Source: a bacterium
GTDB lineage: Bacteria; J088; JAWLBW01
Assembly: GCA_041690355.1 (NCBI GenBank)
Contig: JAWLHK010000008.1
Location: forward strand, 7,374 to 71,373
Direction of reading: 5' to 3'
Length of the DNA: 64,000 nucleotides
In this document: one piece after another, positions 1,115 to 55,830 of the stretch
Numbering within the stretch: the first letter of the stretch is position 1
How the letters are laid out: every line of letters starts with the position of its first letter
The notes under the pieces: model-generated
Told to the model about the DNA's origin: nothing
Seen by the model: the letters and a program-made list of their open reading frames with translations, nothing else
Databases searched by the model: none
Program-made: the position numbers and the translations under genes

Positions 1115-1469
1115 TGGAGATCATTGTACCGTGCCGAGGTCTTCGGACGCCGGACGTCGGACGCCGGTGAAGCAAGGTCCCAGCCCCCACCCCGTGAATC
1201 CTGTGCTGCGGGACTTCCCCCAAGGCGAAGTGAGCAGGCAACTCATGGTGTTCCCGATGATCACCGGCTATGGGGACGACCCCAGCGGGGTCGCATTTTT
1301 GAGACGCGCCGGGTCGCGCGGAATCGTTTCTCCCTGGGCTCGGAAGCGCCGGAACCGGCGCGCGCGAGCCGTCCTTCGCGTGCACGGCCAGACTCCGCCG
1401 GATATCCGCACCGGACGTCTGTCGGATACCCAACGAGGCGGCAGGGTGGCCTCGAATCGCGAACGGAAT

Positions 1470-6594: not shown

Positions 6595-6735
6595 GCGGCG
6601 GGCGGGCGTACAGGGGGGGGGATCGGACGTCGGACTTCGGACGTCGGACGTCGGTTCGGCAAGGGCCAGGCAAGGACGTCTCACGCGGAGACGCGGAGCC
6701 GCGGAGAGGAAGGACCGGCAAGGACCTTCTCGACC
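6595..6735. repeat. Intergenic composite repeat: (TCGGACG)n ... (CGCGGAG)n AGGAAGGACCGGCAAGGACC
   Basis: Direct reading; partial copy at 1135-1175 and a second copy at 7585-7650. Confidence 0.6.
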
Positions 6736-7744: not shown

Positions 7745-8899
7745 CTAGGGCGCCGAAGTGACCAGGGCCCGGTAAAGGGCCCCCCAGCACCAGAGCTCGC
7801 CGCCGGACTTGGTGGCACAGTTATAACCGCCCCGCAAGCTGCGTGAGGCGGCGACGGTCTCCCAGGGGCCCCCCGCCACCTTGACCGGGTGCTCGCGCGG
7901 TTCCGTCGTCCCGTCGCCGAGCTCACCGTACGAATTCCACCCCCAGCACCAGACCTCGCCCGCGCTATCCAGAGCGCAGCTATGGCCATCCCCAGCCGAA
8001 ATCCTGCGCCAGTCTTCTTTCTCCGAGAGGAGACGGGGCACTGCGCTGTCCTTGCCCACGCTGGGTGAAAGATTGCCCCAGCAATACAGGCGTCCGTCTG
8101 ATGCAATCCCGCACGTGTAAAAACCACTGGCGGCCAGCTCCCTGAACGTGACCCCCGGAAACATGACCGGACGCGTGACCGGTTCCGTAGAGCCGCTGCC
8201 CATAAGAGATCTCCTCGAGCCCAGACACCACGCCCGTTGCGCGGGATCCAGGGCGCATGCATGCAACGCGCCAGCCGTGAGGCTGCTCCATCCGGCCGGT
8301 TCGGTTACCGGCTCGGGAGATTCCTGATTGGGCAGGAAAGAGCCCCAGCACGACCAGACCCCCTGCGGGTTCGTCATGCAGGCGATCCGCTCGCCGATCG
8401 CCAGAGCGCTCATGGGCTCTTTCTCCCATGCATGCGCAACCCATGGCGTCGGTTCGTCACCGAACCACGGCCACTTCGTGAAAAGCTCTTCTCCCCAGCA
8501 CTCGAGCCTTGACGCCCCGAAGGCACAGTCGTTTGTCGCGCTGTGCGTGAGCGAGTCCGAAAGGTCTGTTACCTTCCGGGGCTCGACGGCAAAAGCATTC
8601 GTGTCGTCGACCCCGAGGCCATAGACTCTGTTACTGCCCAGACACCAGACGCCCCCGCTGCCTCTTGTGCCGCAGAGGTGAAAGATGGAGGGTGCGAGGA
8701 TCCGCCAGTCCGTGACCATACCTATCCGCACCGGGGTAAGGTAGTACTCCACCGTATGGTCAACCCGTTCGGTCTGCACGGCTTGCGAACCGCAGCCGGC
8801 AACTGCGACGACGAGAAGTGCCAGGCAGAGTCTGGCTTTCCACAGAATCGGTAGTGTAGTGAACCGAGCCGTTGCCGACCGAAGAATCGTGGGAGTCAT
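7745..8899 (-). CDS. RCC1-repeat (regulator of chromosome condensation-like beta-propeller) lipoprotein
   Basis: Repeated CWG(W)N..GELGDG-type RCC1 motifs (CWGWNSYGELGDG); lipobox AGCGS near N-terminus. Confidence 0.7.
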   Translation of the reverse strand: MTPTILRSATARFTTLPILWKARLCLALLVVAVAGCGSQAVQTERVDHTVEYYLTPVRIGMVTDWRILAPSIFHLCGTRGSGGVWCLGSNRVYGLGVDDTNAFAVEPRKVTDLSDSLTHSATNDCAFGASRLECWGEELFTKWPWFGDEPTPWVAHAWEKEPMSALAIGERIACMTNPQGVWSCWGSFLPNQESPEPVTEPAGWSSLTAGALHACALDPAQRAWCLGSRRSLMGSGSTEPVTRPVMFPGVTFRELAASGFYTCGIASDGRLYCWGNLSPSVGKDSAVPRLLSEKEDWRRISAGDGHSCALDSAGEVWCWGWNSYGELGDGTTEPREHPVKVAGGPWETVAASRSLRGGYNCATKSGGELWCWGALYRALVTSAP

Positions 8900-18354: not shown

Positions 18355-18425
18355 GCGCAATTGACAATTTACGATTGACGATTGACGATTTGCCGGACAG
18401 TACGACCTATCGGGCGGGGCCCGGC
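18355..18425. repeat. Heptamer tandem repeat block (TTGACAA TTTACGA TTGACGA TTGACGA)
   Basis: Direct reading; same unit as at 19470-19505, 35510-35540 and, inverted, at 39195-39225. Confidence 0.6.
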
Positions 18426-18534: not shown

Positions 18535-19458
18535 ATGCCGACAACCGTCGCCCCCGCATCCGCTCCTGGCCCCGCCCTCGACCCGCATCGCCTGGTGCGC
18601 CGCCGTGTCGTGCTCGCCATGGTCACGCTCTACGTCCTGTGGAGTTCCACCTACCTCGCCATCCGCATCGCGGTCGAGAGCCTGCCGCCATTTCTCATGG
18701 CCGGCGCCCGGTTCGCCGTGGCCGGAAGCGTGCTCTACGCCGCGCTCCACCTGCGCGGTGTTGCGGCGCCCTCCCTACGGCAGTGGCGGAATGCGGGACT
18801 CATCGGCCTCTTTCTGGTGCTCGGGGGAAACGGGCTCGTGACCCTGGCCGAAACCACCGTTCACTCGGGGACGGCCGCCATTCTCGTTTCGACCTCGAGC
18901 CTGTGGACGACGATGCTCGGCGGCTTCATCGGGCTCCCGCGCCGGCGCCTGGAGTGGGCCGGCATCGCCGTCGGCCTTTCGGGGGTCGTGCTCCTGCACA
19001 TGCAGGATCTCGACCATCTCGGCAGCCCCTTCGGCATCGGCCTGGTCCTCACGGCCGCCGTCCTCTGGGCAAGCGGGTCCATTCTCTCGCTCCGGCTCGA
19101 CCTTCCGGACGCCGTCATGTCGACGGCCGTCCAGATGCTTGTGGCCGGCGGCGCCATGCTCGTCCTTGGCGCGCTGCTCGGCGAGCGGATTCCGCATGCC
19201 CCCACGCCCGATTCCCTCTGGGCCTTCGGCTATCTCATCTTTGTCGCCATGTCGGGCTTCACCGCCTACAACTACGCCATCCGCCATGCGCGCCCGGCCG
19301 TGGCCACGAGCTACGTCTATGTGAATCCGGTGCTCGCCGTCCTGCTCGGCGCCCTCGTCCTCGGCGAACCGATTACCCCTACGACGGTAGCCGCCATGGC
19401 GATCATCGTGAGCGGCGTCATCCTTGTCGTGCTCCCGGGTGCGCTCCGCAGGAAGTGA
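18535..19458 (+). CDS. EamA/DMT superfamily transporter
   Basis: Ten predicted TM segments and two EamA-like halves. Confidence 0.8.
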   Translation: MPTTVAPASAPGPALDPHRLVRRRVVLAMVTLYVLWSSTYLAIRIAVESLPPFLMAGARFAVAGSVLYAALHLRGVAAPSLRQWRNAGLIGLFLVLGGNGLVTLAETTVHSGTAAILVSTSSLWTTMLGGFIGLPRRRLEWAGIAVGLSGVVLLHMQDLDHLGSPFGIGLVLTAAVLWASGSILSLRLDLPDAVMSTAVQMLVAGGAMLVLGALLGERIPHAPTPDSLWAFGYLIFVAMSGFTAYNYAIRHARPAVATSYVYVNPVLAVLLGALVLGEPITPTTVAAMAIIVSGVILVVLPGALRRK

Positions 19459-19665
19459 CGAGTGACGAGCAATTGACGATTTACGATTGACGATTGACAA
19501 TTTACGATTGCGGTCGGGGAAGCACCTGACATTGCATCGGCCCTCGTTTCTTTGGCGCTTGGTGCTTGGCGCTCGGCGATTTTCCCCCCGCCCTCGCTTC
19601 TCAGGAATCAGGAATCCGGGCTTGATTGGCGCTTAGCGCTCAGCGCTTCGCGCCTGGTCCCCTCT
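19459..19665. repeat. Composite intergenic element: (GTGACGA)n, (TTKACGA)n, GGCGCTTGG blocks and (CAGGAAT)n
   Basis: Direct reading; homologous full elements at 35495-35700 and partial copies at the sites listed in the findings. Confidence 0.65.
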
Positions 19666-20590
19666 AGGCCGACGGCTGATCCTGTACGCCCGCCTCCGGC
19701 CTGAGCGGTTCTGCTACTTCGACCTCTTCCGCAATGCCCCCTTCGAACGCCCATCGATAGTCGGCGGCGAACTGGTCGAACGTTCGCGGGGCGCGGCCGG
19801 TGACCTTCTCGACATGGTTCGTGACCCGCGCGGCGATCTCCGTCTGCTCGAACGGATGGAGCGCGAAGAGCACGTCAATCGAGGCCTCGTCGACCCCCGC
19901 ATTCCGCAGCGCATCGCGGGCGTCGCCGACCTTGAGGTCCACGTATCGGACCTCACGTCCGAGTATTCCACCGAGGTGCCGGGCCACCTCCACGTTGGAC
20001 AAGGCCCGGGGACCGGTCAGAAACAGCGTGCGCCCGTTCTGGGTTTCGTGAATGAGCGCGGTCGCGGCCACGAGCGCCACGTCGCGCGCGTCGACGTAGC
20101 TCACGGCCGATTCGCCGGCGGGCTTGAAGACGATCCCCTGCTCGCGCACGACCTCGCCGAGGTGAAAGGCAAAGTCCTGCATGAGCGGGTGCGGGCGCAG
20201 GAAGACATACTGGAAGCCCAGAATCCGGATCTCGTTTTCGATCGCCCGGTGGTGCTCGATGAGCTCGTTGTCGCGCAGAACGCCGATGCCAGGTACCGAG
20301 ATCTTGACGATTTTGCGCACCCCCGCCTGCACCGCCGCGAGCACGAGACGCATCTCGGTCTCGAACTGGGCGGGGCCGAACGATGTGAGCAGAAAGAGGG
20401 TTTCGCACCCGGTAAGAGCCTTGCGCACCGAGCTGTCGCTGGCATGGTTGACGCGCACTTCCTCGTGCACCGTCTGGGTCGGGATACGGCCGGTCGCGTG
20501 TACGCCGATGCGCACGGGCACGTCCTGGGCGGCCAGGATCCGGAGCAGGTCTGCACCGATGAGGCCGGTGGCGCCGGTTACGAAAATCAT
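19664..20590 (-). CDS. NmrA-like NAD(P)-binding atypical SDR oxidoreductase
   Basis: N-terminal MIFVTGATGLIG Rossmann motif; GGAGG SD. Confidence 0.75.
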   Translation of the reverse strand: MIFVTGATGLIGADLLRILAAQDVPVRIGVHATGRIPTQTVHEEVRVNHASDSSVRKALTGCETLFLLTSFGPAQFETEMRLVLAAVQAGVRKIVKISVPGIGVLRDNELIEHHRAIENEIRILGFQYVFLRPHPLMQDFAFHLGEVVREQGIVFKPAGESAVSYVDARDVALVAATALIHETQNGRTLFLTGPRALSNVEVARHLGGILGREVRYVDLKVGDARDALRNAGVDEASIDVLFALHPFEQTEIAARVTNHVEKVTGRAPRTFDQFAADYRWAFEGGIAEEVEVAEPLRPEAGVQDQPSA

Positions 20591-20780: not shown

Positions 20781-20870
20781 GGAGGGGTAGGAAAGCGGCT
20801 TAATCCACCTGACTCGAAATCAGGAGTCCCTTCACGGGGACCGTGGGTTCAAATCCCACCCCCTCCGCCA
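20781..20870 (+). tRNA. tRNA-Ser (anticodon CGA), class II with long variable arm, CCA encoded
   Basis: Acceptor GGAGGGG/CCCCTCC, anticodon loop CUCGAAA, T-arm GTGGGTTCAAATCCCAC, 3' GCCA. Confidence 0.8.
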
Positions 20871-23756: not shown

Positions 23757-23993
23757 CTATGCATCCCAGTCGACCAGCCGCAGCCCGACGACGCGGCCGA
23801 ACTCCCGCGTCTTGTGCGTCACCAGCGTCGCATCATGGGCGCGCGCGATTGCAGGCGCGCGCGATTGCAGCGATCATCAGGTCATTGGGGCCGATGGGAC
23901 GGCCTTGCGCCGCAAGGTCGGCCCGGATCATGCCGTAATGCTCTGCGCACCGGTCATCGAGTGGTGTTGAGGTAAAAGAACACCCCGTTGGAC
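23757..23993 (-). pseudogene. vapC: VapC (PIN domain) toxin remnant: only the C-terminal half, further disrupted by a 16-bp tandem duplication
   Basis: Reverse translation gives ...PLDDRCAEHYGMIRADLAAQGRPIGPNDLMIAAIARA then, after a frameshift, HDATLVTHKTREFGRVVGLRLVDWDA*. GCGCGCGCGATTGCAG is directly duplicated at 23839-23854 and 23855-23870; removing one copy restores the frame. No N-terminal PIN half and no start codon. Confidence 0.6.
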
Positions 23994-24215
23994 TCAATCC
24001 CGGCGCTCGAAGTTGGTTTCAACCTCTCGCTCCAGCCGGTCTCCGGCCCACCGCCCCACGACGCTTTCAAACCAGCCATCCGGCCAGCGCGCGGCAGTGA
24101 GCTCGCGCGTCACCAGCGTAGCGAGGAACCTGGGAACGGTCAGGTTCGCCTCCTGCGCTTTTCGCCGGATGAGCGCTTCGAGGTCGTCAGGAATGACAAA
24201 GTGCAGCTGCCCCAT
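23994..24215 (-). CDS. Ribbon-helix-helix (CopG/VapB-like) antitoxin
   Basis: MGQLHFVIPDDLEALIRRKAQEANLTVPRFLATLVTRELT has an RHH-like pattern; sits immediately upstream of the VapC remnant. Confidence 0.55.
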   Translation of the reverse strand: MGQLHFVIPDDLEALIRRKAQEANLTVPRFLATLVTRELTAARWPDGWFESVVGRWAGDRLEREVETNFERRD

Positions 24216-24251: not shown

Positions 24252-24998
24252 TCACTCGGCCGCCTTCTTTTTCTTCTTCGGCTTTTTTTGTGGCTCGCCA
24301 TCGACCGAAGAGAGCGCGCGCTCCAGATCCCGGCCGGCCGCATCCGTCGTTCTGCGGACCCCCGCCCAGCGGCTCGCATCTGTGTACACCGAGAAGAAGA
24401 GGCCGTAGGTCAGGCCGCCGTAGCGGAACCCGCCGTGGGTCCCGACATCGAATGGCGCCGGGCTCGCGTAGCCGCCTTCGAGCGTAATCGCGAACGGTCC
24501 CGCCCAGGGCGCCCAGGCGAGCCCCAGCGTGCCCGACAGCTGCGGGAAGAAGCTGTTCTCCACATGGTCTTCTGCGCCGTAGCCGGTCAGGCTCGAGCGC
24601 AGCCACGGAAATTCGGCCGCTACCTGGGCGTAGCCGCTCAGACTCGGCAGAAACCGCTGTGTGCGGCGCAGGCCGAAGTAGGGGTCGACGATGGTGAGCG
24701 TCGACGTCAGCCCCTCGAGTTCGGCGTCTTCGCTGCCGAAGCGCAGCCCGCCCACGTATTCGGCCTTGCCGTACAGATGTCCGGACACCTGGACGTCGAG
24801 CAGGTTGAAGGTGCGAACGCTCCCGACATCCCAGAAATCATCGTCGGCCGTGTGATAAGGGGCGAAGATGCCGTCGGTCGTCTGCACGTTGTGAAAGCCG
24901 AACCGCAGTTCCGCGGCCTCTGCAGACCCGGCCGGGAACGTTGAGAGCGCGAATGCCGCTGCGAGAAGAAGGCCGGCCGTTTTCGGGAAAGGTTTCAT
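24252..24998 (-). CDS. Secreted protein, possibly an outer-membrane beta-barrel, with a lysine-rich C-terminal tail
   Basis: Signal peptide MKPFPKTAGLLLAAAFALS; alternating hydrophobic pattern; C-terminal Phe-containing strands; KKPKKKKK tail. Confidence 0.45.
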   Translation of the reverse strand: MKPFPKTAGLLLAAAFALSTFPAGSAEAAELRFGFHNVQTTDGIFAPYHTADDDFWDVGSVRTFNLLDVQVSGHLYGKAEYVGGLRFGSEDAELEGLTSTLTIVDPYFGLRRTQRFLPSLSGYAQVAAEFPWLRSSLTGYGAEDHVENSFFPQLSGTLGLAWAPWAGPFAITLEGGYASPAPFDVGTHGGFRYGGLTYGLFFSVYTDASRWAGVRRTTDAAGRDLERALSSVDGEPQKKPKKKKKAAE

Positions 24999-25003
24999 CG
25001 TGC

Positions 25004-26533
25004 TCATTCTCCCCTCCGATCGAGGATGCCGTCGACGAGAAAATCGGTCTGCTCCTGCGTGCGGGCTGCCGCCGGATCGTGGAAGAGAATCGAACCGTAG
25101 GGATAATCGAGCAGCGCGAACAGAGAGCCGCCCTTGCCAAGCGTGCCGATGCGCAGCGGATAGAACGGCAGGTCCTCATGATCACGTGTCAGATCGAGCG
25201 CCTCGATCTTGCCCGTGCGCAGGTTGAGCGCCACCAGATCGGCGAAGTTCTCGAGGCGCAGAAACAGATGGGCGCCGTCGGGGGTCATGACCGCTTCGGC
25301 GATGCGGTCGGGGAGCTCTACCGGGCTGAAGGCTTCGGCATAGTTGACGTACGTGAACGAGTCGCCCGCCCCGTCCTGCCCGCGGTGGATGGCCACCGAG
25401 CTCTGTCCGTCGGGGGCGTGCAGGATCTCGTCGGCGCGCAGCTGGAAGGGAATGACGACGACGTGGCCGGTGCGCACGTTGAGGCGGTAAATCGACGGCG
25501 CCCCTTTGGCCTGGTGCATGAGCACCCTGCGGCCGTCGGGCGTCGCGACGAGGGTATCGGGCTTGCTCAGGATGTCGGGCATGCGCACGGTCACGGCGCG
25601 GTTCAGGTTGTCGACGTTGAACACCGAGATCGTCTTGTTTCCGTTGAGCACATAAAGCAGCCGCGTCTCGCCGGTGTCGCTGCGCGGAAAAATCGTTTCC
25701 GCGTCAGCCGCGAGCGGGGGGCCGAGCGCCAGCGCGACCGGCTGCTCAACGTCCTGGGCGAGAAAGTTCACCGGCGGCAGATCGAGCGCGGTGTCGGTGG
25801 CGACCGAGAGAATCTCGTCGCGCCCCTGGATGAGCACGAAGACCCGTCCTGCCGTCTGCACGGCCCCGGCCGGCCGTTCGCTCAGGTTGACCTGCACGCT
25901 GAGCGGCCGCGTCTGTTTCCAGTCTTCGCCCGGATCGGCTTCGAAAAGCCGCTCCAGCTTCACCTGCGCCATCTGGCCGGGGGAGAAGAAAAGGAGCCGC
26001 GTCTCGCCGTCCCTCTCGTAAAACGCAATCACGTCGGGGGGCGAGCCCACGGTGAACTCGGCCGCCTCGCCGGTGGCACGGTCGAGCACCGTCATCTGAT
26101 TCGGATCGACGATACCGGGCGCGTCGCCTCCCGGCGTGGCGCGCAGCAGGAGCCAGCGGCCGTCGGGCGACTCGTCGAGGCGATCGCAATACCGGCAGAC
26201 GGCAAAGGTCGCGGCCGTGGCCCCGTCGGCAGAAAGCAGCGTGAGGCGCCCGCGGGCCGGATCGATCCACGCGGTTCCGCCGCCGCCGGCCAGGGCACGG
26301 GCAATCGTGGGCTTGCCGCTCGGATAGAACGGAACGCGCCCGCCCGGGTGCAGCACGAATCCCTGCTTCCACGCGGGATCGTAGACGGCCACCCGTCCGC
26401 CGGCGCCCACCGCCTGCAGCCGGTCTGAGAAGGTTGCTGAATCCCGAGTGTCGCAGCCTGCGAGAAGCAGGGTCGCCCCAAGCAGCCCGGTTCCGAGAAT
26501 CTTTCGCCATGCGCTCGCATGTACCATGGTCAC
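25004..26533 (-). CDS. Lipoprotein with beta-propeller-like repeats
   Basis: Lipobox LLLAGC; repeated hydrophobic/Asp-Gly blade-like segments. Confidence 0.55.
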   Translation of the reverse strand: MTMVHASAWRKILGTGLLGATLLLAGCDTRDSATFSDRLQAVGAGGRVAVYDPAWKQGFVLHPGGRVPFYPSGKPTIARALAGGGGTAWIDPARGRLTLLSADGATAATFAVCRYCDRLDESPDGRWLLLRATPGGDAPGIVDPNQMTVLDRATGEAAEFTVGSPPDVIAFYERDGETRLLFFSPGQMAQVKLERLFEADPGEDWKQTRPLSVQVNLSERPAGAVQTAGRVFVLIQGRDEILSVATDTALDLPPVNFLAQDVEQPVALALGPPLAADAETIFPRSDTGETRLLYVLNGNKTISVFNVDNLNRAVTVRMPDILSKPDTLVATPDGRRVLMHQAKGAPSIYRLNVRTGHVVVIPFQLRADEILHAPDGQSSVAIHRGQDGAGDSFTYVNYAEAFSPVELPDRIAEAVMTPDGAHLFLRLENFADLVALNLRTGKIEALDLTRDHEDLPFYPLRIGTLGKGGSLFALLDYPYGSILFHDPAAARTQEQTDFLVDGILDRRGE

Positions 26534-28056
26534 TCCGCTTCGGTACCCAGCAGGTACCCGGTAAGAACTTCGCGATCGGTTTCGACGCTGGCGGCGCTGG
26601 CCGTCACGTCGAGAAAAAGAATGCGCCCCGCATCGTGCTCCTGCGTGACGAAGGCGTGGCCCCCCGCCAGCGGCATGGCGCTCAGGAACAGCGGCTTCGC
26701 GTCGAGGGCATGGGCCGCGTGCAGGCCGTTGCGCAGCGAGAGGGTCACGAGGTAATCGGGTTTCTCTGTGGTGAGGAATGCAAAGTCGCCGTCGGGGCTG
26801 AAGGCGATGCCGTGGATGTCCCCCGCAAGTTCGATGGCCGGCGCATCGCCCGTGGCCAGGTCGAGCATCGACACGACAGGACCGCCCAACGCGCTGCTTC
26901 CGGCGCGGTGCACGATGAGCGCGCTGCGGCTGTCGGGAGCCGGGATCGCGGCCGCCACGGGGGCGACGAGCGGCACGTCGGTGATACTGTCGTCACCCGG
27001 ATCAAAGATTGCCACGGCCGACAGGTTCGCCGCCGCCGTGAAGAGAATGCCGCGCGAGCCGTCGGGGGTGAACTCGGTCTGGGCGTAGGGGTGCGGGCTG
27101 GTGACGGCCGCACTGAAGGTCACCTCCGTCGCGCCGACGGCGAAGCGGCGCAGCCGGTAGCGTGAAGGATTGCGATCCGAGACGTAGAGCACGTCGGCGT
27201 CGGCGCTCAGATCCATGTCGGTGGCCACGCTGTCGCCGGCCACTGAAGACGCAATGCCGTCGGCGAGGCGCACGGCCCGCACGCCGTTCCGGTCCGCTTC
27301 GCGGAAGAACGCCCAGCCGCCGTCGTTGGTGAGCAGCGCCTCTTCGAGCGTCCCGAAGGTCGACGTCGTGAAGGGGATCGGGCTCGCCGTCGCCGTCGCC
27401 AGATTGAGCAGCGTGCCCCGCGCGTCGGTAGCCGCCAGCGCCAGCGGCGTTCCATCGTTCCCCGTCGCGAGCACGATGGCGCGCGGCGCGAAGCCGAGGG
27501 CGCGCGAGACGACGCGCCCGGCCGCGATGTCGATGATCGAGACGACGTCGAGCGAGCGCGCCCCGCCGTCGACCGCGTCGCCGTCGAGCGCGGCCTTGTC
27601 GACGTAGCCGACCCCGAACCCCGACGGGTGAAAGACGATGTCGTTGACGTCGGCCGGGATGCGCACGTTCCGCAGATCTCCAGAGGCGGCGTCGAGGAGG
27701 CTCACCGTGTGGTCGCCGCGGTTGAGCACGAGCACATGCTGCGGCGTCGTGCGGATGATGCCCGGCTCGAGCCCGGTGCGGATCAGGCTGATTTCATGCG
27801 GCCGCGCCACCGAGATGCGCGATATGGAGTCGATGCTCGGATTGGCGACGTACAGGTACTCTTCGGTCACTCCGGGCGCGACGCCGAGAAAGGCGCGTGT
27901 GACGACCTCGGTTTCGGGCGGGAGCGTCGTATCCGTGACGTCGTCGCCGATGCCGCCCGGACGGCCGTCTCCCTCCACGGCGCTGTCGTAGGCGCCGGAG
28001 CAGGCGACCGAACCGAGCACGAACAGCAGTGCGCCGTGGAGCAGGGTCTTATTCAT
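26530..28056 (-). CDS. YVTN-family beta-propeller lipoprotein (paralog 1)
   Basis: Lipobox VACSG; YVANPSIDSISRI-type YVTN repeat; about 60% identical to the next gene. Confidence 0.6.
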   Translation of the reverse strand: MNKTLLHGALLFVLGSVACSGAYDSAVEGDGRPGGIGDDVTDTTLPPETEVVTRAFLGVAPGVTEEYLYVANPSIDSISRISVARPHEISLIRTGLEPGIIRTTPQHVLVLNRGDHTVSLLDAASGDLRNVRIPADVNDIVFHPSGFGVGYVDKAALDGDAVDGGARSLDVVSIIDIAAGRVVSRALGFAPRAIVLATGNDGTPLALAATDARGTLLNLATATASPIPFTTSTFGTLEEALLTNDGGWAFFREADRNGVRAVRLADGIASSVAGDSVATDMDLSADADVLYVSDRNPSRYRLRRFAVGATEVTFSAAVTSPHPYAQTEFTPDGSRGILFTAAANLSAVAIFDPGDDSITDVPLVAPVAAAIPAPDSRSALIVHRAGSSALGGPVVSMLDLATGDAPAIELAGDIHGIAFSPDGDFAFLTTEKPDYLVTLSLRNGLHAAHALDAKPLFLSAMPLAGGHAFVTQEHDAGRILFLDVTASAASVETDREVLTGYLLGTEAE

Positions 28057-29563
28057 CGTGCGTCCCCAGGAGATAGCCGGTCAGGATTTCGGTCTCGTGC
28101 TCGACGCTCGCCAGGGTGTCGGTCACGTCGAGAAACAGGATGCGGCCGGCGTCGTGTTCCTGCGTGACGAAGGCGTGACCCCCTGCGAGGGGCAGCACGC
28201 CGAGAAACAGCGGCGCCTCGCCGAGCGCTTCCGCTCGGTACAGGCCGTTGCGCAACGAGAGCGTGAGCAGGTAGTCGGGCGATTTCGTCGTGACGAAGGC
28301 GAAGGCGCCGTCGGGGCTGAAGGCGAGCCCGTGCAGATCGCCCTCGAGCTCGATGGCGGGCGCCTCGCCGGTGTCGAGGTTCAGCAGCGTGAGCGCCGCG
28401 CGGGAGAAGAAGCCGCCGGCGCCGTCTCCCTCGTGCGCGAGAATGGCCGTGCCGCTGTCGGGGGCCATCCACAGGGCGCTGACGGGGCGCACGACGGGAG
28501 CTTCGAGTACGCCGCCGTCTGCGGTCGCGAGGATGCCGACTCCGGCGACCGACCCGCCCCCGGCGAACAGCAGCGCGCGGGTGCCGTCGGGCGTGAGCTC
28601 CACCTGCGTATACGGAGTCGCGACCGTCACCGTGGTCACCGGGGTAATCGCGGCGGCCCCGACGGCATAACGGTGCAGGCGGAAGTCGTTGTCGGCCTCG
28701 GCCACGTAAAGCGAAGCGCCGTCGGGGCCAAGTTCCGCATCGCTGACGGTAATCCCGGCGGCCACCGTCGCCGCCTCGCCATTCGCCAGCCGGACGGCGC
28801 GCAACCCCTTGTTCCCCGCGAGGCGGAAAAGCGCCCAGGCGCCGTCGGGCGTGAGCAGGGCTTCTTCGATCTCCGGAAGCGAAGCCGACGTGAAGGGGAC
28901 CGGCGTCGCGGCAGCCGTGCGCAGGTCGAGAAGGGCTGCCCGGTTCTCGCCGGCAACAAGCGCCGTCCAGGTACCGGCGAACCGGATGGCCGCGGGCGCG
29001 AAGCCGAGGGCGCGCGAGACGGCCGTTCGACCCGGAATGTCGAGGGCCGTGATTACGTCGAGGGCGCGCGTGCCGCCGTCGAGGTCGGAGTCGGTCACGC
29101 GTTCGCGGTTCACGAAGCCGAGTGCATAGTTGCCGTGGTGGGCGACGTCGTTGATGTCCTTGGGCAGGCGCAGCGTGCGCACGCTGTGGTCGGCGCGGTG
29201 CACGAGGCTCACCGAATGTTCCCCCTCGTTCAGCACGAGCAGGTCGGTCGGCGTCGCGTGAATGAGTCCCGGCTCGAGCCCCGTGCGGATCAGATCGATG
29301 GTGTGCGGCCGGGCAATGCCGATGCGCGAGATGGAATCGAGGCTCGGATTGGCCACGTAGAGATATTCCTCGGTCACGGCCGGCGCGACGCCGAGAAAGT
29401 GCAGGCTCACGATCTCCGACTCCCGGGGGAGCGGCCCCCCCTGGCCTGCGGGGTCGGGGTCGACCAGGTCGTCGAGCCACTCGCGCGAGGCCGCGTCGCC
29501 GCAGGCAACCATGGCGACCAGCGAGGCCATGAGGATCGGGAGCAGACGGGGCAGTCGCGTCAT
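28049..29563 (-). CDS. YVTN-family beta-propeller lipoprotein (paralog 2)
   Basis: Start MTRLPRLLPILMASLVAMVACGD; shares the C-terminus AGGHAFVTQEHDAGRILFLDVT with paralog 1. Confidence 0.6.
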   Translation of the reverse strand: MTRLPRLLPILMASLVAMVACGDAASREWLDDLVDPDPAGQGGPLPRESEIVSLHFLGVAPAVTEEYLYVANPSLDSISRIGIARPHTIDLIRTGLEPGLIHATPTDLLVLNEGEHSVSLVHRADHSVRTLRLPKDINDVAHHGNYALGFVNRERVTDSDLDGGTRALDVITALDIPGRTAVSRALGFAPAAIRFAGTWTALVAGENRAALLDLRTAAATPVPFTSASLPEIEEALLTPDGAWALFRLAGNKGLRAVRLANGEAATVAAGITVSDAELGPDGASLYVAEADNDFRLHRYAVGAAAITPVTTVTVATPYTQVELTPDGTRALLFAGGGSVAGVGILATADGGVLEAPVVRPVSALWMAPDSGTAILAHEGDGAGGFFSRAALTLLNLDTGEAPAIELEGDLHGLAFSPDGAFAFVTTKSPDYLLTLSLRNGLYRAEALGEAPLFLGVLPLAGGHAFVTQEHDAGRILFLDVTDTLASVEHETEILTGYLLGTHDE

Positions 29564-29809
29564 ACGGAATTCCTCGAGAAAGCGGAATGGATCCGGTTCG
29601 CCCGGTTCGCGGAGCAAGAAGCATACCATAGTCCATCGCTGAGCCTCACGCTTGGGGTAAGGGCGGATCCAGGCCTGGAATCCGGAGGGTGGAATGCGGA
29701 ATGGCCGGTCCCTGTACGACATTGGTGTCACAGAGGCAGGCGGAAGAAGGGCTTGCGCATTTAACGCAATGCGTCAATAATATGGGCAGGTCCCGGTTGG
29801 AGGATATGC

Positions 29810-34886: not shown

Positions 34887-35489
34887 TCAGGGGGCGAGCC
34901 GCTCCCTCTGCCAGTGCCCTTCAGGCGACTTCCGGTACAGGAATCGATCGTGCAGGCGCCCCTCGCCGCGCTGCCAGAACTCGAGGGCGGCCGGCCGCAC
35001 CAGGTATCCGCCCCAATGCGGCGGACGGGGAACTTCGCTGCCCGCGAAACGCGCTTCCTGTTCCGCATACGTCTTCAGCAGGAACGCGCGGTCGGGGATG
35101 GTTCGGCTCTGCGGCGAGGTCCACGCCCCGATCTGGCTCATGCGCGGCCGCGTGCGGAAGTAGGCGTCGGAGGTCTCGGCCGCGACCTTCTCGGCGATCC
35201 CGCGGATGCGCACCTGGCGGTCGGTCTTGGGCCAGAAGAAATTCAGGGCCACGCGCGGATTTTCGGCCAGGGCGCGCCCCTTGTCGCTCTCATAATTCGT
35301 GTAGAAGCTGAACCCGTCGGCGGTCACGTCCTTGAGCAGCACGACGCGCGACGAAGGTTGGCCCTCGGCATCGGCGGTGGCGAGGATCATGGCCTCGGGC
35401 TCTTCCATCCCCGTCGCCTGCGCGTCGGCGAACCAGAGCCGGAACTGTTCGATGGGATCCGCGAGCATGAGTGTGGGATCGAGCGACAT
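34887..35489 (-). CDS. pdxH: Pyridoxamine 5'-phosphate oxidase
   Basis: Characteristic PNPOx sequence (RVVLLKDV..FYTNYESDKGRALAENPRVAL..FWQ). Confidence 0.85.
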   Translation of the reverse strand: MSLDPTLMLADPIEQFRLWFADAQATGMEEPEAMILATADAEGQPSSRVVLLKDVTADGFSFYTNYESDKGRALAENPRVALNFFWPKTDRQVRIRGIAEKVAAETSDAYFRTRPRMSQIGAWTSPQSRTIPDRAFLLKTYAEQEARFAGSEVPRPPHWGGYLVRPAALEFWQRGEGRLHDRFLYRKSPEGHWQRERLAP

Positions 35490-35494
35490 ACTTG

Positions 35495-35700
35495 AAGTGA
35501 CGAGTGACGAGAATTTACGATTTACGATTGACGATTTGAGGAAAGTGACGAGTTACAAGTGACGAGTGACGAGTTTTCCGGCAAGGACCTGGGCGTCCTT
35601 GTTCTTGCCGGTCAGCGCTTGGCGCTCGGCGCTCAGCGCTCGGTCCTGCCTCTCAGGAATCAAGAATCAGGAATCCGGAATTCATTGTATGCGTTTGCGC
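35495..35700. repeat. Full composite intergenic element: (GTGACGA)n (TTTACGA)n (GTKACGA)n, hairpin core TTTCCGGCAAGG...CCTTG..CTTGCCGG, GCGCTYGGCGCT blocks, (CAGGAAT)n
   Basis: Direct reading; homologous to 19459-19665, 36598-36700, 39813-39915 and 55735-55830. Confidence 0.65.
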
Positions 35701-36507: not shown

Positions 36508-36597
36508 GGAGAGGTGGCCGAGCGGCTGAAGGCACGCGACTGGAAATCGCGTAAACCTTAACGGGTTTCGAGGGTTCGAATCCCTCCCTCTCCGCCA
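36508..36597 (+). tRNA. tRNA-Ser (anticodon GGA), class II, CCA encoded
   Basis: GGAGAGGTGGCCGAGCGGCTGAAGGC...anticodon loop CUGGAAA...T-arm GAGGGTTCGAATCCCTC...CCTCTCCGCCA; TATAAT box about 40 nt upstream. Confidence 0.85.
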
Positions 36598-36700
36598 ATT
36601 CAAGTTACGAGTGACGAGTTACGAGTGACGAGTATTCGGCAAGGGCGTGGGTATCCTGGGCCCTTGTCGGCTCGGCGCTCAGTGCTTGGCGCTTTTCGCT
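36598..36700. repeat. Composite element copy (GTTACGA/GTGACGA heptamers plus a GGCAAGGGCGTGGGTATCCTGGGCCCTTGTC hairpin plus GCGCTCAGTGCTTGGCGCT)
   Basis: Direct reading immediately 3' of tRNA-Ser(GGA). Confidence 0.6.
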
Positions 36701-36918: not shown

Positions 36919-38697
36919 ATGGCTTACCTCGTACTCGCTCGCAAATACCGCCCGCAGACCCTCGAAGACGTCCTGGGCCAGGACCACGTCACGACCACCC
37001 TGCGCAACGCGATCGCCGGCGATCGGGTCGCCCACGCCTACCTGTTCACGGGGGCGCGCGGCGTCGGCAAGACCAGCTCGGCGCGCATTCTCGCCAAGGC
37101 GCTCAACTGTGTGTCGGGGCCCACGATCACCCCGTGCAACACCTGCGAGAACTGCCGCGAGATCACCGACGGCAACAGCCTCGACGTCTTCGAGATCGAC
37201 GCCGCCAGCAATACAGGCGTCGATCACGTGCGCGACCTGCAGGACGGCCTGCGCTACATGCCGGGCAAGAGCCGCTTCAAGATCTACATCATTGACGAAG
37301 TGCACATGCTCTCGACGGCGGCCTTCAACGCGCTGCTCAAGACGCTCGAGGAACCGCCCCCGCACGTGCGCTTCATCTTCGCGACGACCGAACCGCACAA
37401 GATTCCGGTCACGATTCTCTCGCGCTGCCAGCGCTTCGACTTCAAGCGCCTGTCCCGTGCCCGCATCGTCGAGCGTCTGCGTCATATCCTCGACACCGAG
37501 GGCGTAACGTACGACGCCGCTGCTCTCCAGGTGCTCGCCCGCGAAGCCGAGGGGTCCATGCGCGACGCCCTGAGCCTCACCGATCAGGCGCTCAGCTTCG
37601 GCGGCGGAACGCTTGATGAACAGACGGTCACGAACGCGCTCGGCATCGTCGACCGCGCCATTCTGAACGACGCGGTGCGCGGCATCCTGCAAGGGGACGC
37701 GCAGCAGCTGCTCGAGATCGTCGAGAAGATCTACGATTACGGCTACGACGTGCGCCAGTTCACGCGGAATCTGCTGGAGCATTTCCGCCACTTGCTGGTG
37801 GTCAAGGTCGCGCAGGAGCCGGGGCGCGTCGTCGACCTGCCCGCCGAAGACATTGCCGAACTGCAGGCCCAGGCCGAAGGGCAGGGTTCAGACCGGCTGC
37901 ACCGGCTCTTCGGCGGCCTGCTCAAGCTCGGCGACGACGTGGGCCGCAGCGCCCATCCGCGCATGGTGCTCGAGGTGGGCCTGATTCGCCTGGCGACGCT
38001 GGGACCCCTCAAGCCGGTCGAAGAGCTGCTGGGGGCCCTGCGCGACATGGCCGGGCGCCGGCCGCCGATCGCCGGCGGCACGGGCGGCTATGTCCCGGCG
38101 GCCGCCGCGTCTCCCCTGCCCCCGCCGCCGCCCCCCTCGTTTCCCGTGGCCGCGGCCCCGCAGGTGCGCCCGCCGGCCCCCCCGCCGCCGGCGCCCCCCC
38201 CACGTGGAGAGCCCGAGGCTCAGCGCGCGGCCGAGCCCGCCGCGCTTCCGCCCACGACCGGTTCGGGAGAAGACTTCGGCGCGTGGCTGCACCGGGCGAA
38301 CTCAAAGCTGGCGGCGCAGCTGCGCTCGGCCGAGTTCCGCGTCGAAGGGCACGTGCTGCGCATCCGCCTGCCCAAGGAGCAGGGCTTCGTCATGACGCTG
38401 CTCCAGAGCACCCAGCGCGGCGAGCTCGAAGCGGCCGTGCGGGGCTTTCTCGGCAGCGCGGGCACGGCGGCCATCGAGCTGATCGATCGCGACGCGGCTC
38501 CGCGGGCGCAGGCGGCCCCTGCCGCGCCCCCCCCGCGGGCGCGCCGGGGCGAGAGTGAAGCCGAGCGCAACCGGAAGCGCGAAGCGGTCGACCACCCAGC
38601 CGTGCAGCAGATCTTGAAGGTTTTCGAAGGGAGTTCCATCATGGATGTGCAGCTCCTGGCCGAGCCGGTCGCTCCGGTCGACGAAGACATACACTGA
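36919..38697 (+). CDS. dnaX: DNA polymerase III subunit gamma/tau
   Basis: Walker A GARGVGKTS, Zn-finger CxxC..C..C, DEVHM box; Pro/Ala-rich tau linker. Confidence 0.9.
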   Translation: MAYLVLARKYRPQTLEDVLGQDHVTTTLRNAIAGDRVAHAYLFTGARGVGKTSSARILAKALNCVSGPTITPCNTCENCREITDGNSLDVFEIDAASNTGVDHVRDLQDGLRYMPGKSRFKIYIIDEVHMLSTAAFNALLKTLEEPPPHVRFIFATTEPHKIPVTILSRCQRFDFKRLSRARIVERLRHILDTEGVTYDAAALQVLAREAEGSMRDALSLTDQALSFGGGTLDEQTVTNALGIVDRAILNDAVRGILQGDAQQLLEIVEKIYDYGYDVRQFTRNLLEHFRHLLVVKVAQEPGRVVDLPAEDIAELQAQAEGQGSDRLHRLFGGLLKLGDDVGRSAHPRMVLEVGLIRLATLGPLKPVEELLGALRDMAGRRPPIAGGTGGYVPAAAASPLPPPPPPSFPVAAAPQVRPPAPPPPAPPPRGEPEAQRAAEPAALPPTTGSGEDFGAWLHRANSKLAAQLRSAEFRVEGHVLRIRLPKEQGFVMTLLQSTQRGELEAAVRGFLGSAGTAAIELIDRDAAPRAQAAPAAPPPRARRGESEAERNRKREAVDHPAVQQILKVFEGSSIMDVQLLAEPVAPVDEDIH

Positions 38698-39100: not shown

Positions 39101-39235
39101 ATTGACGATTGACAATTGACGATTGACGATTTTTTCGTACACTCGTCAATCTGTCTTCGTCCCTTTTTTTTGTACTCCGTCCTTGCCGAAAATTGTTAAT
39201 CGTAAATCGTAAATCGTAAATTTGTCCGACCCGAT
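39095..39235. repeat. Heptamer repeats (ATTGACG ATTGACA ATTGACG ATTGACG) and, about 80 nt later, the inverted form (CGTAAAT)x3
   Basis: Direct reading between ybaB and recR. Confidence 0.6.
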
Positions 39236-39812
39236 CCAGAATCTCATTCATGAGCTGACGCGGTTGCCGTCGGTGGGCGAGAAGACCGCCACGCGGCTCG
39301 CGTTTCACCTGCTCAAGACGCCGACCGAGACGGCCCTCGCGCTTTCGCGCGCCATCGCCGAGGTCAAGGAGAAGGTGCGCCTGTGCAACCGCTGCTTCCA
39401 CCTGACGAGCGGCGAGGAGTGCAACCTCTGCATCGATCCGCGGCGCGAGGGAGATCGGATCTGCGTCGTCGAAGAGCCGCTCGATCTGCTCGCCATCGAG
39501 AAGTCGCGCATCTACCGCGGCCGCTACCACGTGCTGCACGGCGTGCTCAGTCCGATTGACGGGGTCGGCCCCGATCAGCTGCGCATCGAGCCGCTGCTGG
39601 CCCGCATTCCCGCCGAGCAGGTGCGCGAGGTCATCCTCGCGACCAATCCGTCGGTGGAAGGGGAGGCGACGGCCATCTATCTGGCCAAGCTGCTCAAGCC
39701 GATGGGCGTGCGCATCAGCCGTATCGCCCACGGCATTCCCATGGGCGGCGAACTCGAATACACCGACGAGCTGACCATCGGCCGCGCCCTCACCGACCGG
39801 CGTGAAATGTGA
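39222..39812 (+). CDS. recR: Recombination protein RecR
   Basis: HhH (LPSVGEKTATRLAFHLL), C4 zinc finger (CNRCFHLTSGEECNLC), Toprim. Confidence 0.9.
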   Translation: MSDPIQNLIHELTRLPSVGEKTATRLAFHLLKTPTETALALSRAIAEVKEKVRLCNRCFHLTSGEECNLCIDPRREGDRICVVEEPLDLLAIEKSRIYRGRYHVLHGVLSPIDGVGPDQLRIEPLLARIPAEQVREVILATNPSVEGEATAIYLAKLLKPMGVRISRIAHGIPMGGELEYTDELTIGRALTDRREM

Positions 39813-39915
39813 CGAGTTACGAGTGACGAGTGACGAGTTTCCGGCAAGGGCGTGGGCATCCTAGTCCTTGCCGGTCAGCGCTCAGTGCTTAGCGCTTGGC
39901 GCTTGGCCCTAGAAG
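39813..39915. repeat. Composite element copy ((GTGACGA/GTTACGA)n plus TTTCCGGCAAGGGCGTGGGCATCCTAGTCCTTGCCGG hairpin plus GCGCTCAGTGCTTAGCGCTTGGCGCTTGGC)
   Basis: Direct reading 3' of recR. Confidence 0.65.
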
Positions 39916-42405: not shown

Positions 42406-42530
42406 CGCGCCGGAGATGCATTCCTGATACCTGATTCTTGATTCCTGATTCGGCGAGGGCCGGGCAATTCCCCGTGCGTGCGTACCCTCGTCCTTGTTGG
42501 CTCAGGAATCAGGAATCAGGAATGGGAGGA
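42405..42530. repeat. (ATTCCTG)n inverted arm ... (CAGGAAT)x3: an inverted-repeat pair of the CAGGAAT heptamer block
   Basis: Direct reading; GCATTCCTGATACCTGATTCTTGATTCCTGATTC ... CTCAGGAATCAGGAATCAGGAAT. Confidence 0.6.
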
Positions 42531-55734: not shown

Positions 55735-55830
55735 CCTTCTCCTTGCGAAGGAGAAGGGTTTCTTTCCCGGTCCTTGCTTCCTGATCCGGCCCTTGCTTCT
55801 CAGGAATCAAGAATCAGGAATCAGGAATCC
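55735..55830. repeat. Composite element copy (hairpin CCGGTCCTTGCTTCC...GGCCCTTGCTTCT plus CAGGAAT/CAAGAAT x4)
   Basis: Direct reading. Confidence 0.6.

What the first reader, a model, noticed from the sequence alone, without database searches (positions are those of the whole stretch)
23757..24215. Decaying toxin-antitoxin locus: RHH antitoxin followed by a VapC remnant inactivated by N-terminal loss and a 16-bp tandem duplication
Immediately downstream of a 73-aa RHH-type antitoxin, the minus strand encodes only the C-terminal about 65 residues of a PIN toxin (LDDRCAEHYGMIRADLAAQGRPIGPNDLMIAAIARA...HDATLVTHKTREFGRVVGLRLVDWDA). The reading frame is broken exactly at a perfect direct duplication of GCGCGCGCGATTGCAG (23839-23854 and 23855-23870); deleting one copy restores a contiguous VapC C-terminus. 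This gives a clear mechanistic snapshot of toxin-gene decay while the antitoxin ORF stays intact.
Basis: seen in the sequence. Interest (0 to 1): 0.55.

Follow-up and report, generated by a model that had tools for sequence, protein, structure and literature searches.

The report
Decayed vapBC toxin-antitoxin locus
This is a broken toxin-antitoxin gene pair: the small antitoxin gene is still whole, but the toxin gene next to it has lost about 187 bases from its front half and also carries a 16-base tandem duplication, which is an ordinary way for such loci to decay.

Summary
On the minus strand, 24215-23994 encodes a full-length 73-aa ribbon-helix-helix VapB-type antitoxin. No Pfam or NCBIfam model covers it, but it has about 130 homologues of 73-77 aa, and these sit directly upstream of VapC in 42 fetched loci. 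Downstream, only the C-terminal half of a tRNA(fMet)-type VapC/PIN toxin remains, matching positions 65-129 of 130 of NF047863. GCGCGCGCGATTGCAG is perfectly duplicated in tandem (23839-54 and 23855-70). The five homologues aligned at DNA level lack this insert, and a DNA profile of 30 intact vapBC loci matches the duplicated segment twice. The same profile shows that 205 profile positions are missing, a net loss of 187-188 nt. One refinement: about 7-8 codons of the vapC 5' end probably survive (23983-23960), so the loss is an internal out-of-frame deletion rather than a clean N-terminal truncation. No N-terminal PIN half exists elsewhere in the window. About one in nine related metagenomic vapC copies is also disrupted, and the literature already describes orphan antitoxins beside degraded toxins. 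Read-level support and sister genomes could not be checked, because the source lineage has no sequenced relatives in the collections. This is ordinary and of low interest.

The parts
23994..24215 (-). vapB: intact 73-aa RHH-type antitoxin ORF (ATG 24215-24213, stop TGA 23996-23994)
   Evidence: ORF. About 130 homologues of 73-77 aa match end to end. All near-invariant family residues are kept: W44 P45 F49 G54 W56 G58 R63 E70 R72. RHH fold is supported. Homologues lie directly upstream of VapC in 42 loci.
23960..23983 (-). Probable relic of the vapC 5' end: GTG TTC TTT TAC CTC AAC ACC ACT (VFFYLNTT, against family xMFLLDTN). The first catalytic Asp position reads Asn. This relic reads into TGA at 23956-23954.
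   Evidence: nhmmer extends the left hit to the vapC start, model position 233, at low posterior probability. Gapless mean identity to 39 unique vapC 5' ends is 0.495, against a null of 0.239 +/- 0.067. Only 6e-4 of 24-mers in 8 kb of flanking sequence do as well. Support is moderate, not conclusive.
23960..23966 (-). Deletion junction. About 187-188 nt of vapC are missing (roughly codons 9-70, which include the E42-equivalent catalytic residue).
   Evidence: Profile positions 234-438 of 626 are absent. The distance from vapB start to vapC stop is 623-639 nt in 35 homologous loci (nearly all with intact vapC), against 459 nt here, or 443 nt without the duplicate. The gap also shows in the MAFFT alignment. 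A possible CCA microhomology at the junction is inference only.
23855..23964 (-). vapC 3' relic, part 1: PLDDRCAEHYGMIRADLAAQGRPIGPNDLMIAAIARA. It lies inside the 54-aa ORF 23997-23833, which then runs out of frame to ...CNRARP and a stop.
   Evidence: nhmmer model positions 439-545. Aligns to residues 71 to about 107 of Shigella VapC 3TND, including the D98 equivalent.
23839..23870 (.). Perfect tandem duplication of 16 bp (GCGCGCGCGATTGCAG x2), which shifts the frame by +1. The periodic tract is 23838-23870, so the register is ambiguous by 1 nt.
   Evidence: The insert is absent from all five aligned homologues. Profile positions 529-545 are matched twice.
23757..23854 (-). vapC 3' relic, part 2, in a different frame: (AIARA)HDATLVTHKTREFGRVVGLRLVDWDA plus stop TAG at 23759-23757
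   Evidence: nhmmer model positions 529-622. Aligns to residues of about 103-131 of 3TND, including the E119 equivalent.

Best explanation
This is a pseudogenised type II vapBC toxin-antitoxin module. The ancestral locus was a standard bicistron of about 626-632 nt. It consisted of an RHH VapB antitoxin of about 75 aa, followed within a few bases by a PIN-domain VapC of about 133 aa from the tRNA(fMet)-endonuclease clade.

Two independent lesions have destroyed vapC:
- An internal, out-of-frame deletion of about 187-188 nt removed roughly codons 9-70. These include the E42-equivalent catalytic residue, and only a short relic of the first codons is left.
- A 16-bp tandem duplication in a GC-alternating tract shifts the frame in the remaining C-terminal half. 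The tract and the 1-nt flanking homology are consistent with replication slippage.

The order of the two events cannot be determined, and either alone would inactivate the toxin. vapB remains an intact ORF with all family-conserved residues.

This fits the expected asymmetry of toxin-antitoxin decay. Losing the toxin is harmless, whereas losing the antitoxin first would be lethal, so the toxin dies first and the antitoxin lingers as an orphan.

Shown here: the anatomy, the homology, both lesions relative to intact relatives, and the RHH fold. Inferred: the slippage mechanism, the microhomology at the deletion junction, that vapB is still expressed, and that the decay is recent.
For: - The duplication is real in the sequence and perfect. 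It is absent from the five homologues aligned at DNA level, and profile positions 529-545 are matched twice.
- Profile positions 234-438 of 626 are missing. The locus span is 459 nt against 623-639 nt in 35 homologous loci.
- The repaired fragment matches NF047863 positions 65-129 of 130 at E 1.9e-19 and PIN positions 69-117 of 120. It aligns to residues 71-131 of solved tRNA(fMet)-specific VapC structures such as 3TND and 9H6A, with the D98 and E119 equivalents present.
- No N-terminal PIN half exists elsewhere in the window.
- The antitoxin matches its family end to end, has an RHH fold, and is the cognate upstream partner of this VapC subfamily in 42 loci.
- The remnant is still 70-81% identical to the closest of the fetched homologues, so little drift has occurred since inactivation.
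- About 8 of 70 complete related loci are also disrupted.
- Orphan antitoxins next to degraded toxins are documented as common (PMC7354431).
Against: - No reads are available, so the duplication could in principle be an assembly or consensus artefact. The locus would still be a dead vapC because of the deletion.
- No sister genome or syntenic locus could be found, so the ancestral intact state is inferred from homologues with 70-81% toxin identity and about 50% antitoxin identity, not from an orthologous locus.
- No sigma-70-like promoter was predicted on the minus strand upstream of vapB, so expression of the antitoxin is unproven.
- The antitoxin is slightly more divergent from its homologues than expected for the toxin's similarity: 42% against 52 +/- 7% in the 70-80% toxin-identity bin. 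This could mean it is also beginning to drift.
Confidence: 0.85

Rival explanations
1. The orphan VapB is not merely awaiting decay. It is kept by selection, for example as an anti-addiction module that neutralises incoming or paralogous VapC toxins, or as an RHH transcriptional regulator. This concerns the fate of vapB and is compatible with vapC being dead.
For: vapB keeps every near-invariant family residue, including those in the C-terminal toxin-binding half, while vapC carries two lesions. VapC toxins of this clade are abundant on conjugative plasmids, with 2,668 PLSDB records. The literature proposes anti-addiction roles for orphan antitoxins (PMC7354431).
Against: The vapC remnant is itself barely drifted (70-81% identity to the closest fetched homologues), so an intact vapB is equally expected from recency alone. 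This antitoxin family has no plasmid match in PLSDB. No other VapC is present in the window. The antitoxin is slightly more divergent than expected. No promoter was predicted.
Confidence: 0.2
2. The 16-bp tandem duplication is an assembly or consensus artefact, or a minority population variant in a metagenome-assembled genome. The only real lesion would then be the 187-nt deletion.
For: The source appears to be a single NCBI contig of 215 kb from a lineage with no relatives, possibly a MAG. The alternating GC tract is a difficult template.
Against: Perfect 16-bp tandem duplications are not a typical short-read or homopolymer-type error. No other gene-disrupting perfect duplication of this kind appears in the window's TRF list. 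Tandem duplications by slippage are a common natural mutation, from established knowledge.
Confidence: 0.1
3. The deletion is a true 5' truncation, running from the vapB 3' end to about vapC codon 60, with filler or small extra indels. On this reading the 24 nt at 23983-23960 are not a relic of the vapC start. They could instead be a frameshifted remnant of the ...KVFFxPL... segment just upstream of LPFDD.
For: GGGGTGTTCTTTT resembles AAGGTGTTTTTTT (K-V-F-F) of locus L001 at 10 of 13 positions, by my reading. nhmmer posterior probabilities at the vapC start are low.
Against: This reading needs an extra 8-nt deletion. The register that matches the vapC start is the best of 36 tested and lies 3.8 sd above the null. 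That register sits at the expected distance after the vapB stop.
Confidence: 0.3
4. The truncated PIN fragment is a functional mini-protein: the 54-aa ORF 23997-23833, or a product made by programmed frameshifting across the repeat.
For: An ORF with a TTG start exists.
Against: It lacks two of the four PIN acidic residues and half of the fold. It ends in out-of-frame residues. No homologue shares this architecture in a conserved way; the truncated relatives each carry different lesions.
Confidence: 0.02

Closest known systems
tRNA(fMet)-specific endonuclease VapC / MvpT (PIN domain; NCBIfam NF047863 and NF010285; solved structures such as Shigella flexneri VapC 3TND)
   Same: The surviving C-terminal half aligns without gaps to residues 71-131 of 132, with the D98 and E119 equivalents and the GRPIGPxD...TREFxRV motifs. 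It sits downstream of an antitoxin gene, as in vapBC operons.
   Different: Only about half of the domain is present. The D7 and E42 equivalents are lost or mutated, the frame is broken by a 16-bp duplication, and the score of 70 bits is far below the curated cut-off of 140. It is a pseudogene, not a member protein. In Shigella and Salmonella the partner VapB is, from my own knowledge, AbrB-type rather than RHH.
RHH-type VapB antitoxins (e.g. M. tuberculosis VapB26 5X3T and VapB11 6A7V) and the Arc/CopG/MetJ ribbon-helix-helix superfamily
   Same: It has an N-terminal strand-helix-helix DNA-binding module (Arc E 2.4e-4; Arc rmsd 1.0 A over 41 residues and VapB11/VapB26 as top hits). This is followed by an extended C-terminal toxin-binding tail.
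   Different: No Pfam, NCBIfam or PADLOC model detects it. It belongs to a distinct subfamily with the tail motif WPxGYFE..GxWxGxPLxRPxQGxFExR. That tail also occurs fused to a different N-terminal domain in locus L002.
Orphan antitoxins beside degraded toxins (e.g. the Caulobacter parE pseudogene with ParD, Shigella yacB frameshift, and Klebsiella orphan antitoxins; review PMC7354431)
   Same: The pattern is the same: the toxin is inactivated by a frameshift or deletion while the antitoxin ORF persists.
   Different: Nothing essential differs. This instance happens to show two separate lesions, one of which is a neat tandem duplication.

Membership tests
VapC / PIN-domain toxin (tRNA(fMet)-specific clade) | Complete PIN domain of about 130 aa that scores above the curated family threshold | tested here: not met
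   NF047863 gives 70.3 bits against a cut-off of 140, covering only profile positions 65-129 of 130. Pfam PIN covers positions 69-117 of 120.
VapC / PIN-domain toxin (tRNA(fMet)-specific clade) | Four conserved acidic active-site residues in one reading frame (D7, E42, D98, E119 in Shigella VapC numbering; numbering from my own knowledge) | tested here: not met
   The D98 and E119 equivalents are present but separated by the frameshift. The E42 region is deleted. The D7 position reads Asn in the probable 5' relic.
VapC / PIN-domain toxin (tRNA(fMet)-specific clade) | Sequence descent from the family (homology of the surviving part) | tested here: met
   E 1.9e-19 to NF047863. E 8e-16 to solved VapC chains. 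Identity of 70-81% to the closest of the fetched homologues, most of which are intact.
VapC / PIN-domain toxin (tRNA(fMet)-specific clade) | Cleavage of initiator tRNA | not testable with these tools
   Needs biochemistry. Not expected for a half domain.
RHH-type VapB antitoxin | N-terminal ribbon-helix-helix DNA-binding fold | tested here: met
   The profile of alignment A1 hits Arc (2.4e-4), an RHH CopG-family protein, VapB26 and MazE6. The AF2 model has pLDDT 86 with helices at 10-22 and 27-41. Foldseek gives Arc at rmsd 1.0 A, probability 0.99, with VapB11 and VapB26 as top hits.
RHH-type VapB antitoxin | Encoded immediately upstream of, and co-oriented with, a VapC gene | tested here: met
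   Here, the vapB stop is at 23994 and the vapC relic starts at about 23983. Homologues of this antitoxin lie directly upstream of the same VapC subfamily in 42 fetched loci.
RHH-type VapB antitoxin | Full-length ORF with the conserved C-terminal toxin-binding segment | tested here: met
   End-to-end matches (1-73 against 1-72 or so) to many homologues. All residues conserved at 90% or more are kept. The ORF is 1-4 residues shorter at the variable tip.
RHH-type VapB antitoxin | Binds and neutralises VapC, and autorepresses its operon | not testable with these tools
   Needs experiments. No minus-strand promoter was predicted upstream.
Functional type II toxin-antitoxin module | Both a functional toxin gene and a functional antitoxin gene | tested here: not met
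   The toxin gene carries a deletion of about 187 nt and a 16-bp frameshifting duplication.

The most novel reading that the evidence does not exclude
The orphan RHH VapB belongs to an antitoxin subfamily that no Pfam, NCBIfam or PADLOC model detects. It could be actively maintained after toxin loss, either as an anti-addiction or immunity factor against incoming VapC-bearing mobile elements or as a domesticated regulator. The locus would then be a snapshot of antitoxin domestication rather than plain decay.
Probability: 0.12. Interest if true: 0.35.

Novelty: new member of a known kind. Interest (0 to 1): 0.14.

Why it matters
It matters little beyond annotation. The region should be annotated as vapB plus a vapC pseudogene, not as a functional TA system or as a novel small ORF. 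It is a clean textbook example of the toxin-first order of TA decay, with two mechanistically different lesions: a probable microhomology deletion and a slippage duplication in a GC-alternating tract. A minor by-product is that this VapB subfamily (tail motif WPxGYFE..GxWxGxPLxRPxQGxFExR) is widespread in metagenomes but not covered by the Pfam, NCBIfam or PADLOC models used here. TA-finding pipelines that rely on those models would therefore miss the antitoxin.

Tried and rejected
- **Antitoxin in the word-indexed protein search:** it returned only the query itself. The exhaustive search was needed to find the family.
- **Short toxin query in the word-indexed search:** the 67-aa repaired fragment returned only hits of 118 aa or less. 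The three loci fetched from them all had broken vapC genes. I first suspected widespread decay, then rejected that as a length bias of the short query. The unbiased metagenome scan shows most copies are intact.
- **Finding the source genome or syntenic relatives:** two genome-contig scans found nothing, one with the antitoxin and one with the adjacent 509-aa protein. Exact look-ups of three window proteins found no contig on record. The adjacent 251-aa protein has no homologue. Five window proteins found in the exact look-up are singleton clusters without names.
- **Promoter and terminator scan:** no minus-strand promoter upstream of vapB and no terminator.
- **PADLOC:** no hits.
- **PLSDB with the antitoxin:** no match.
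- **Co-divergence analysis:** this tested whether the antitoxin has drifted faster than the toxin remnant. It shows only a weak, non-significant excess of divergence.
- **MAFFT gap placement:** its placement of the junction residues was judged arbitrary, so it was replaced by the profile and register tests.

Full report
**Observation**

The plus-strand sequence at 23839-23870 reads GCGCGCGCGATTGCAG GCGCGCGCGATTGCAG. Tandem Repeats Finder reports 23838-23870, period 16, 2.1 copies, 100% matches and no indels. With about 64% G+C, the chance of a perfect 16-nt tandem repeat at a given position is about 0.27^16. That gives roughly 5e-5 expected in 64 kb (my estimate from composition), so this is not a chance feature.

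Downstream, the reading ...PLDDRCAEHYGMIRADLAAQGRPIGPNDLMIAAIARA runs out of frame at the repeat. The continuation HDATLVTHKTREFGRVVGLRLVDWDA* lies in another frame.

**What the two genes are**

The repaired fragment matches Pfam PIN (PF01850) only over profile positions 69-117 of 120. It matches NCBIfam NF047863, the tRNA(fMet)-specific endonuclease VapC, over positions 65-129 of 130 (E 1.9e-19). The score is 70 bits against a curated cut-off of 140.

Against solved structures, it aligns without gaps to residues 71-131 of 132 of Shigella and Salmonella VapC (3TND, 9H6A and others; E about 1e-15). The equivalents of D98 (GPNDLM) and E119 (TREF) are present. The active-site numbering comes from my own knowledge of the Shigella VapC structure.

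The 73-aa protein has no Pfam, NCBIfam or PADLOC hit, and it found only itself in the word-indexed search. An exhaustive HMMER search found 130 representatives at E<=1e-3. Most are 73-77 aa long and match end to end. Their alignment shows a conserved pattern, MxQLHxYVPD...A...WPxGYFE..GxWxGxPLxRPxQGxFExR. The window protein keeps every residue conserved at 90% or more, and it ends 1-4 residues earlier than most homologues, at a variable tip.

Three results support an RHH fold:
- A profile of this alignment hits the Arc repressor (E 2.4e-4), a CopG-family RHH protein, M. tuberculosis VapB26 and MazE6 over positions 1-41.
- An AlphaFold2 model has mean pLDDT 86. It has helices at 10-22 and 27-41, then a short helix and an extended tail.
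- The best Foldseek matches are M. tuberculosis VapB11 and VapB26, then Arc at rmsd 1.0 A over 41 residues (probability 0.99), CopG and AtaR.

The label "RHH-type antitoxin" is therefore supported.

**Comparison with intact relatives**

My first toxin search with the 67-aa fragment returned only proteins of 118 aa or less. The three loci I fetched from it each carried a broken vapC, by frameshift, in-frame stop or premature stop. I treat this as a length bias caused by the short query.

An unbiased scan of metagenome contigs gave 80 loci. Of these, 10 are cut by contig ends. Among the remaining 70, 61-62 carry an intact-looking VapC of about 133 aa beginning M[FY]LLDTN. About 8 are disrupted: L019, L032, L050, L058, L062/L063, L074 and L085 (with manual correction). 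Decayed copies of this vapC subfamily are thus fairly common, at about one in nine.

Homologues of the window's antitoxin lie immediately upstream of the VapC gene in 42 of the fetched loci. This establishes it as the cognate partner family. From antitoxin start to toxin stop, 35 of these loci (nearly all with intact vapC) span 623-639 nt. The window spans 459 nt, or 443 nt without the duplicate.

**The two lesions**

In a MAFFT alignment with five homologous loci, the window has a 16-nt insertion at exactly the repeat position that none of the five has. It also has a gap of about 187 nt.

I built a DNA profile from 30 vapBC loci (nearly all with intact vapC), 626 positions long. It matches the window in three pieces:
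- positions 6-233, covering vapB and the very start of vapC;
- positions 439-545;
- positions 529-622.

Positions 529-545 are matched twice, which is the duplication. Positions 234-438 are absent and only 17 nt stand in their place, a net loss of 187-188 nt that is not a multiple of three.

tblastn with full-length homologues finds no N-terminal PIN half anywhere else in the 64-kb window.

**Refinement of the breakpoints**

The 24 nt at 23983-23960, GTG TTC TTT TAC CTC AAC ACC ACT, encode VFFYLNTT. They sit 10 nt after the vapB stop, where vapC should begin. They resemble the family's 5' end (xMFLLDTN).

Their mean gapless identity to 39 unique homologous 5' ends is 0.495. The null from all 24-mers in 8 kb of flanking sequence is 0.239 +/- 0.067, and only 6e-4 of those windows do as well. 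This is the best of 36 registers tested around the junction. After allowing for the registers tried, the support is moderate, roughly p of 0.02 by my estimate.

On this reading the loss is an internal out-of-frame deletion from about codon 9 to about codon 70. The junction lies within ACCACTC (23966-23960), where a CCA microhomology is possible (inference). The first catalytic Asp position now reads Asn.

The alternative is a pure 5' truncation plus a small extra indel. I give it about 0.3. It does not change the conclusion.

**Mechanism and state of decay**

Either lesion alone would inactivate VapC. The deletion removes the E42-equivalent residue and half of the fold. The duplication puts the E119-equivalent residue out of frame. 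Their order cannot be determined.

The duplicated unit begins with an alternating (GC)4 tract, and the periodic tract extends 1 nt beyond two full copies. This is consistent with replication slippage, which is an inference from established knowledge.

The remnant is still 70-81% identical at protein level to the closest of the fetched homologues, and it has no lesions other than these two. Inactivation therefore looks recent. An intact vapB is expected from recency alone and need not imply selection.

In a co-divergence comparison, the window's antitoxin is somewhat more diverged than expected. Its identity is 42%, against 52 +/- 7% for pairs whose toxin C-termini are 70-80% identical. This is about 1.4 sd and not significant.

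No sigma-70-like promoter was predicted on the minus strand upstream of vapB. vapB starts 36 nt after the stop of the upstream 251-aa gene, so co-transcription is possible.

**Comparison with what is known**

The toxin remnant descends from the VapC/MvpT clade, which is abundant on conjugative plasmids (2,668 PLSDB records match). The antitoxin family has no PLSDB match.

Orphan antitoxins beside degraded toxins are well documented. A review (PMC7354431) describes thousands of predicted orphan antitoxins in Klebsiella, most flanked by degraded partners. It also cites the Caulobacter parE pseudogene and the Shigella yacB frameshift, and it discusses the untested idea that such orphans act as anti-addiction modules.

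This locus is another instance of that known pattern. It fails the membership tests for a functional VapC and for a functional TA module. Its antitoxin passes the sequence, fold and context tests for an RHH VapB.

**What could not be done**

Reads are not available, so an assembly artefact for the duplication cannot be excluded. I give that about 0.1, and the deletion would still leave vapC dead.

The source lineage is essentially unsampled:
- Two scans of GTDB species representatives found nothing.
- Exact look-ups found no contig on record.
- The neighbouring 251-aa protein has no homologue.
- Five window proteins found in the exact look-up are singleton clusters from one 215-kb NCBI contig.

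The ancestral orthologous locus therefore could not be examined.

**Verdict**

This is an ordinary decaying vapBC locus. Novelty is "new member of a known kind" and interest is about 0.14.

Noticed in passing
window 1144-1167, 6623-6654, 18360-18390, 19452-19510, 19552-19578, 19600-19620, 35495-35574, 35604-35643, 35653-35681, 36603-36633, 39101-39131, 39190-39221, 39809-39838, 42420-42451, 42502-42523, 55800-55829: Many short tandem arrays of heptamers (ATTGACG/ATTTACG, AGTGACG, TCGGACG, TTGGCGC, TCAGGAA; 3-10 copies) recur at apparently intergenic sites. In at least two places (19440-19680 and 35480-35700) three array types occur in the same order. A 75-nt stretch at 35545-35619 is 91% identical to 39809-39882. 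This looks like a dispersed intergenic repeat family, reminiscent of heptanucleotide STRR repeats (from my own knowledge), in a genome of about 65% G+C.
   Followed up: partly
whole window (e.g. 24252-25007, 25004-26533, 26530-28056, 36919-38697, 58038-59837, 7745-8899): The source lineage appears almost unsampled. The six window proteins found in the exact look-ups are singleton 90% clusters from one 215,294-bp NCBI contig. The 251-aa protein has no homologue in the 5.8-billion-protein search. Two scans of GTDB species representatives found no relative.
   Followed up: partly
window 24252-29731 (minus strand): Directly upstream of vapB lies a run of four overlapping minus-strand genes (560, 508, 509 and 251 aa). 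They have no Pfam hits apart from a weak LpqB beta-propeller (Gmad1) match in the 560-aa protein. The 251-aa protein ends in a lysine-rich tail (EPQKKPKKKKKAAE). It looks like an operon of unknown function.
   Followed up: no
locus L002:2208-2444 (NCBI GCA_046728855.1): In this relative, the same C-terminal toxin-binding tail (WPPGFFEQTAGAWQGEPLTREPQGEFEERD) is fused to a different, non-RHH-looking N-terminal domain. This is an example of DNA-binding-domain swapping among antitoxins. The vapC there has an in-frame stop at codon 10, and the module sits inside a type I R-M / DarT defence island.
   Followed up: no
antitoxin family (alignment A1; loci L001-L058): This widespread VapB subfamily has about 130 representatives at 50% identity and partners the VapC subfamily in 42 fetched loci. 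Pfam-A, NCBIfam and PADLOC models do not detect it at the thresholds used, so HMM-based TA finders would call these VapCs solitary toxins.
   Followed up: partly
window 20781-20870 and 36508-36597: Two tRNA-Ser genes (anticodons CGA and GGA) are present. The second is immediately followed by an AGTGACG heptamer array at 36603-36633.
   Followed up: no
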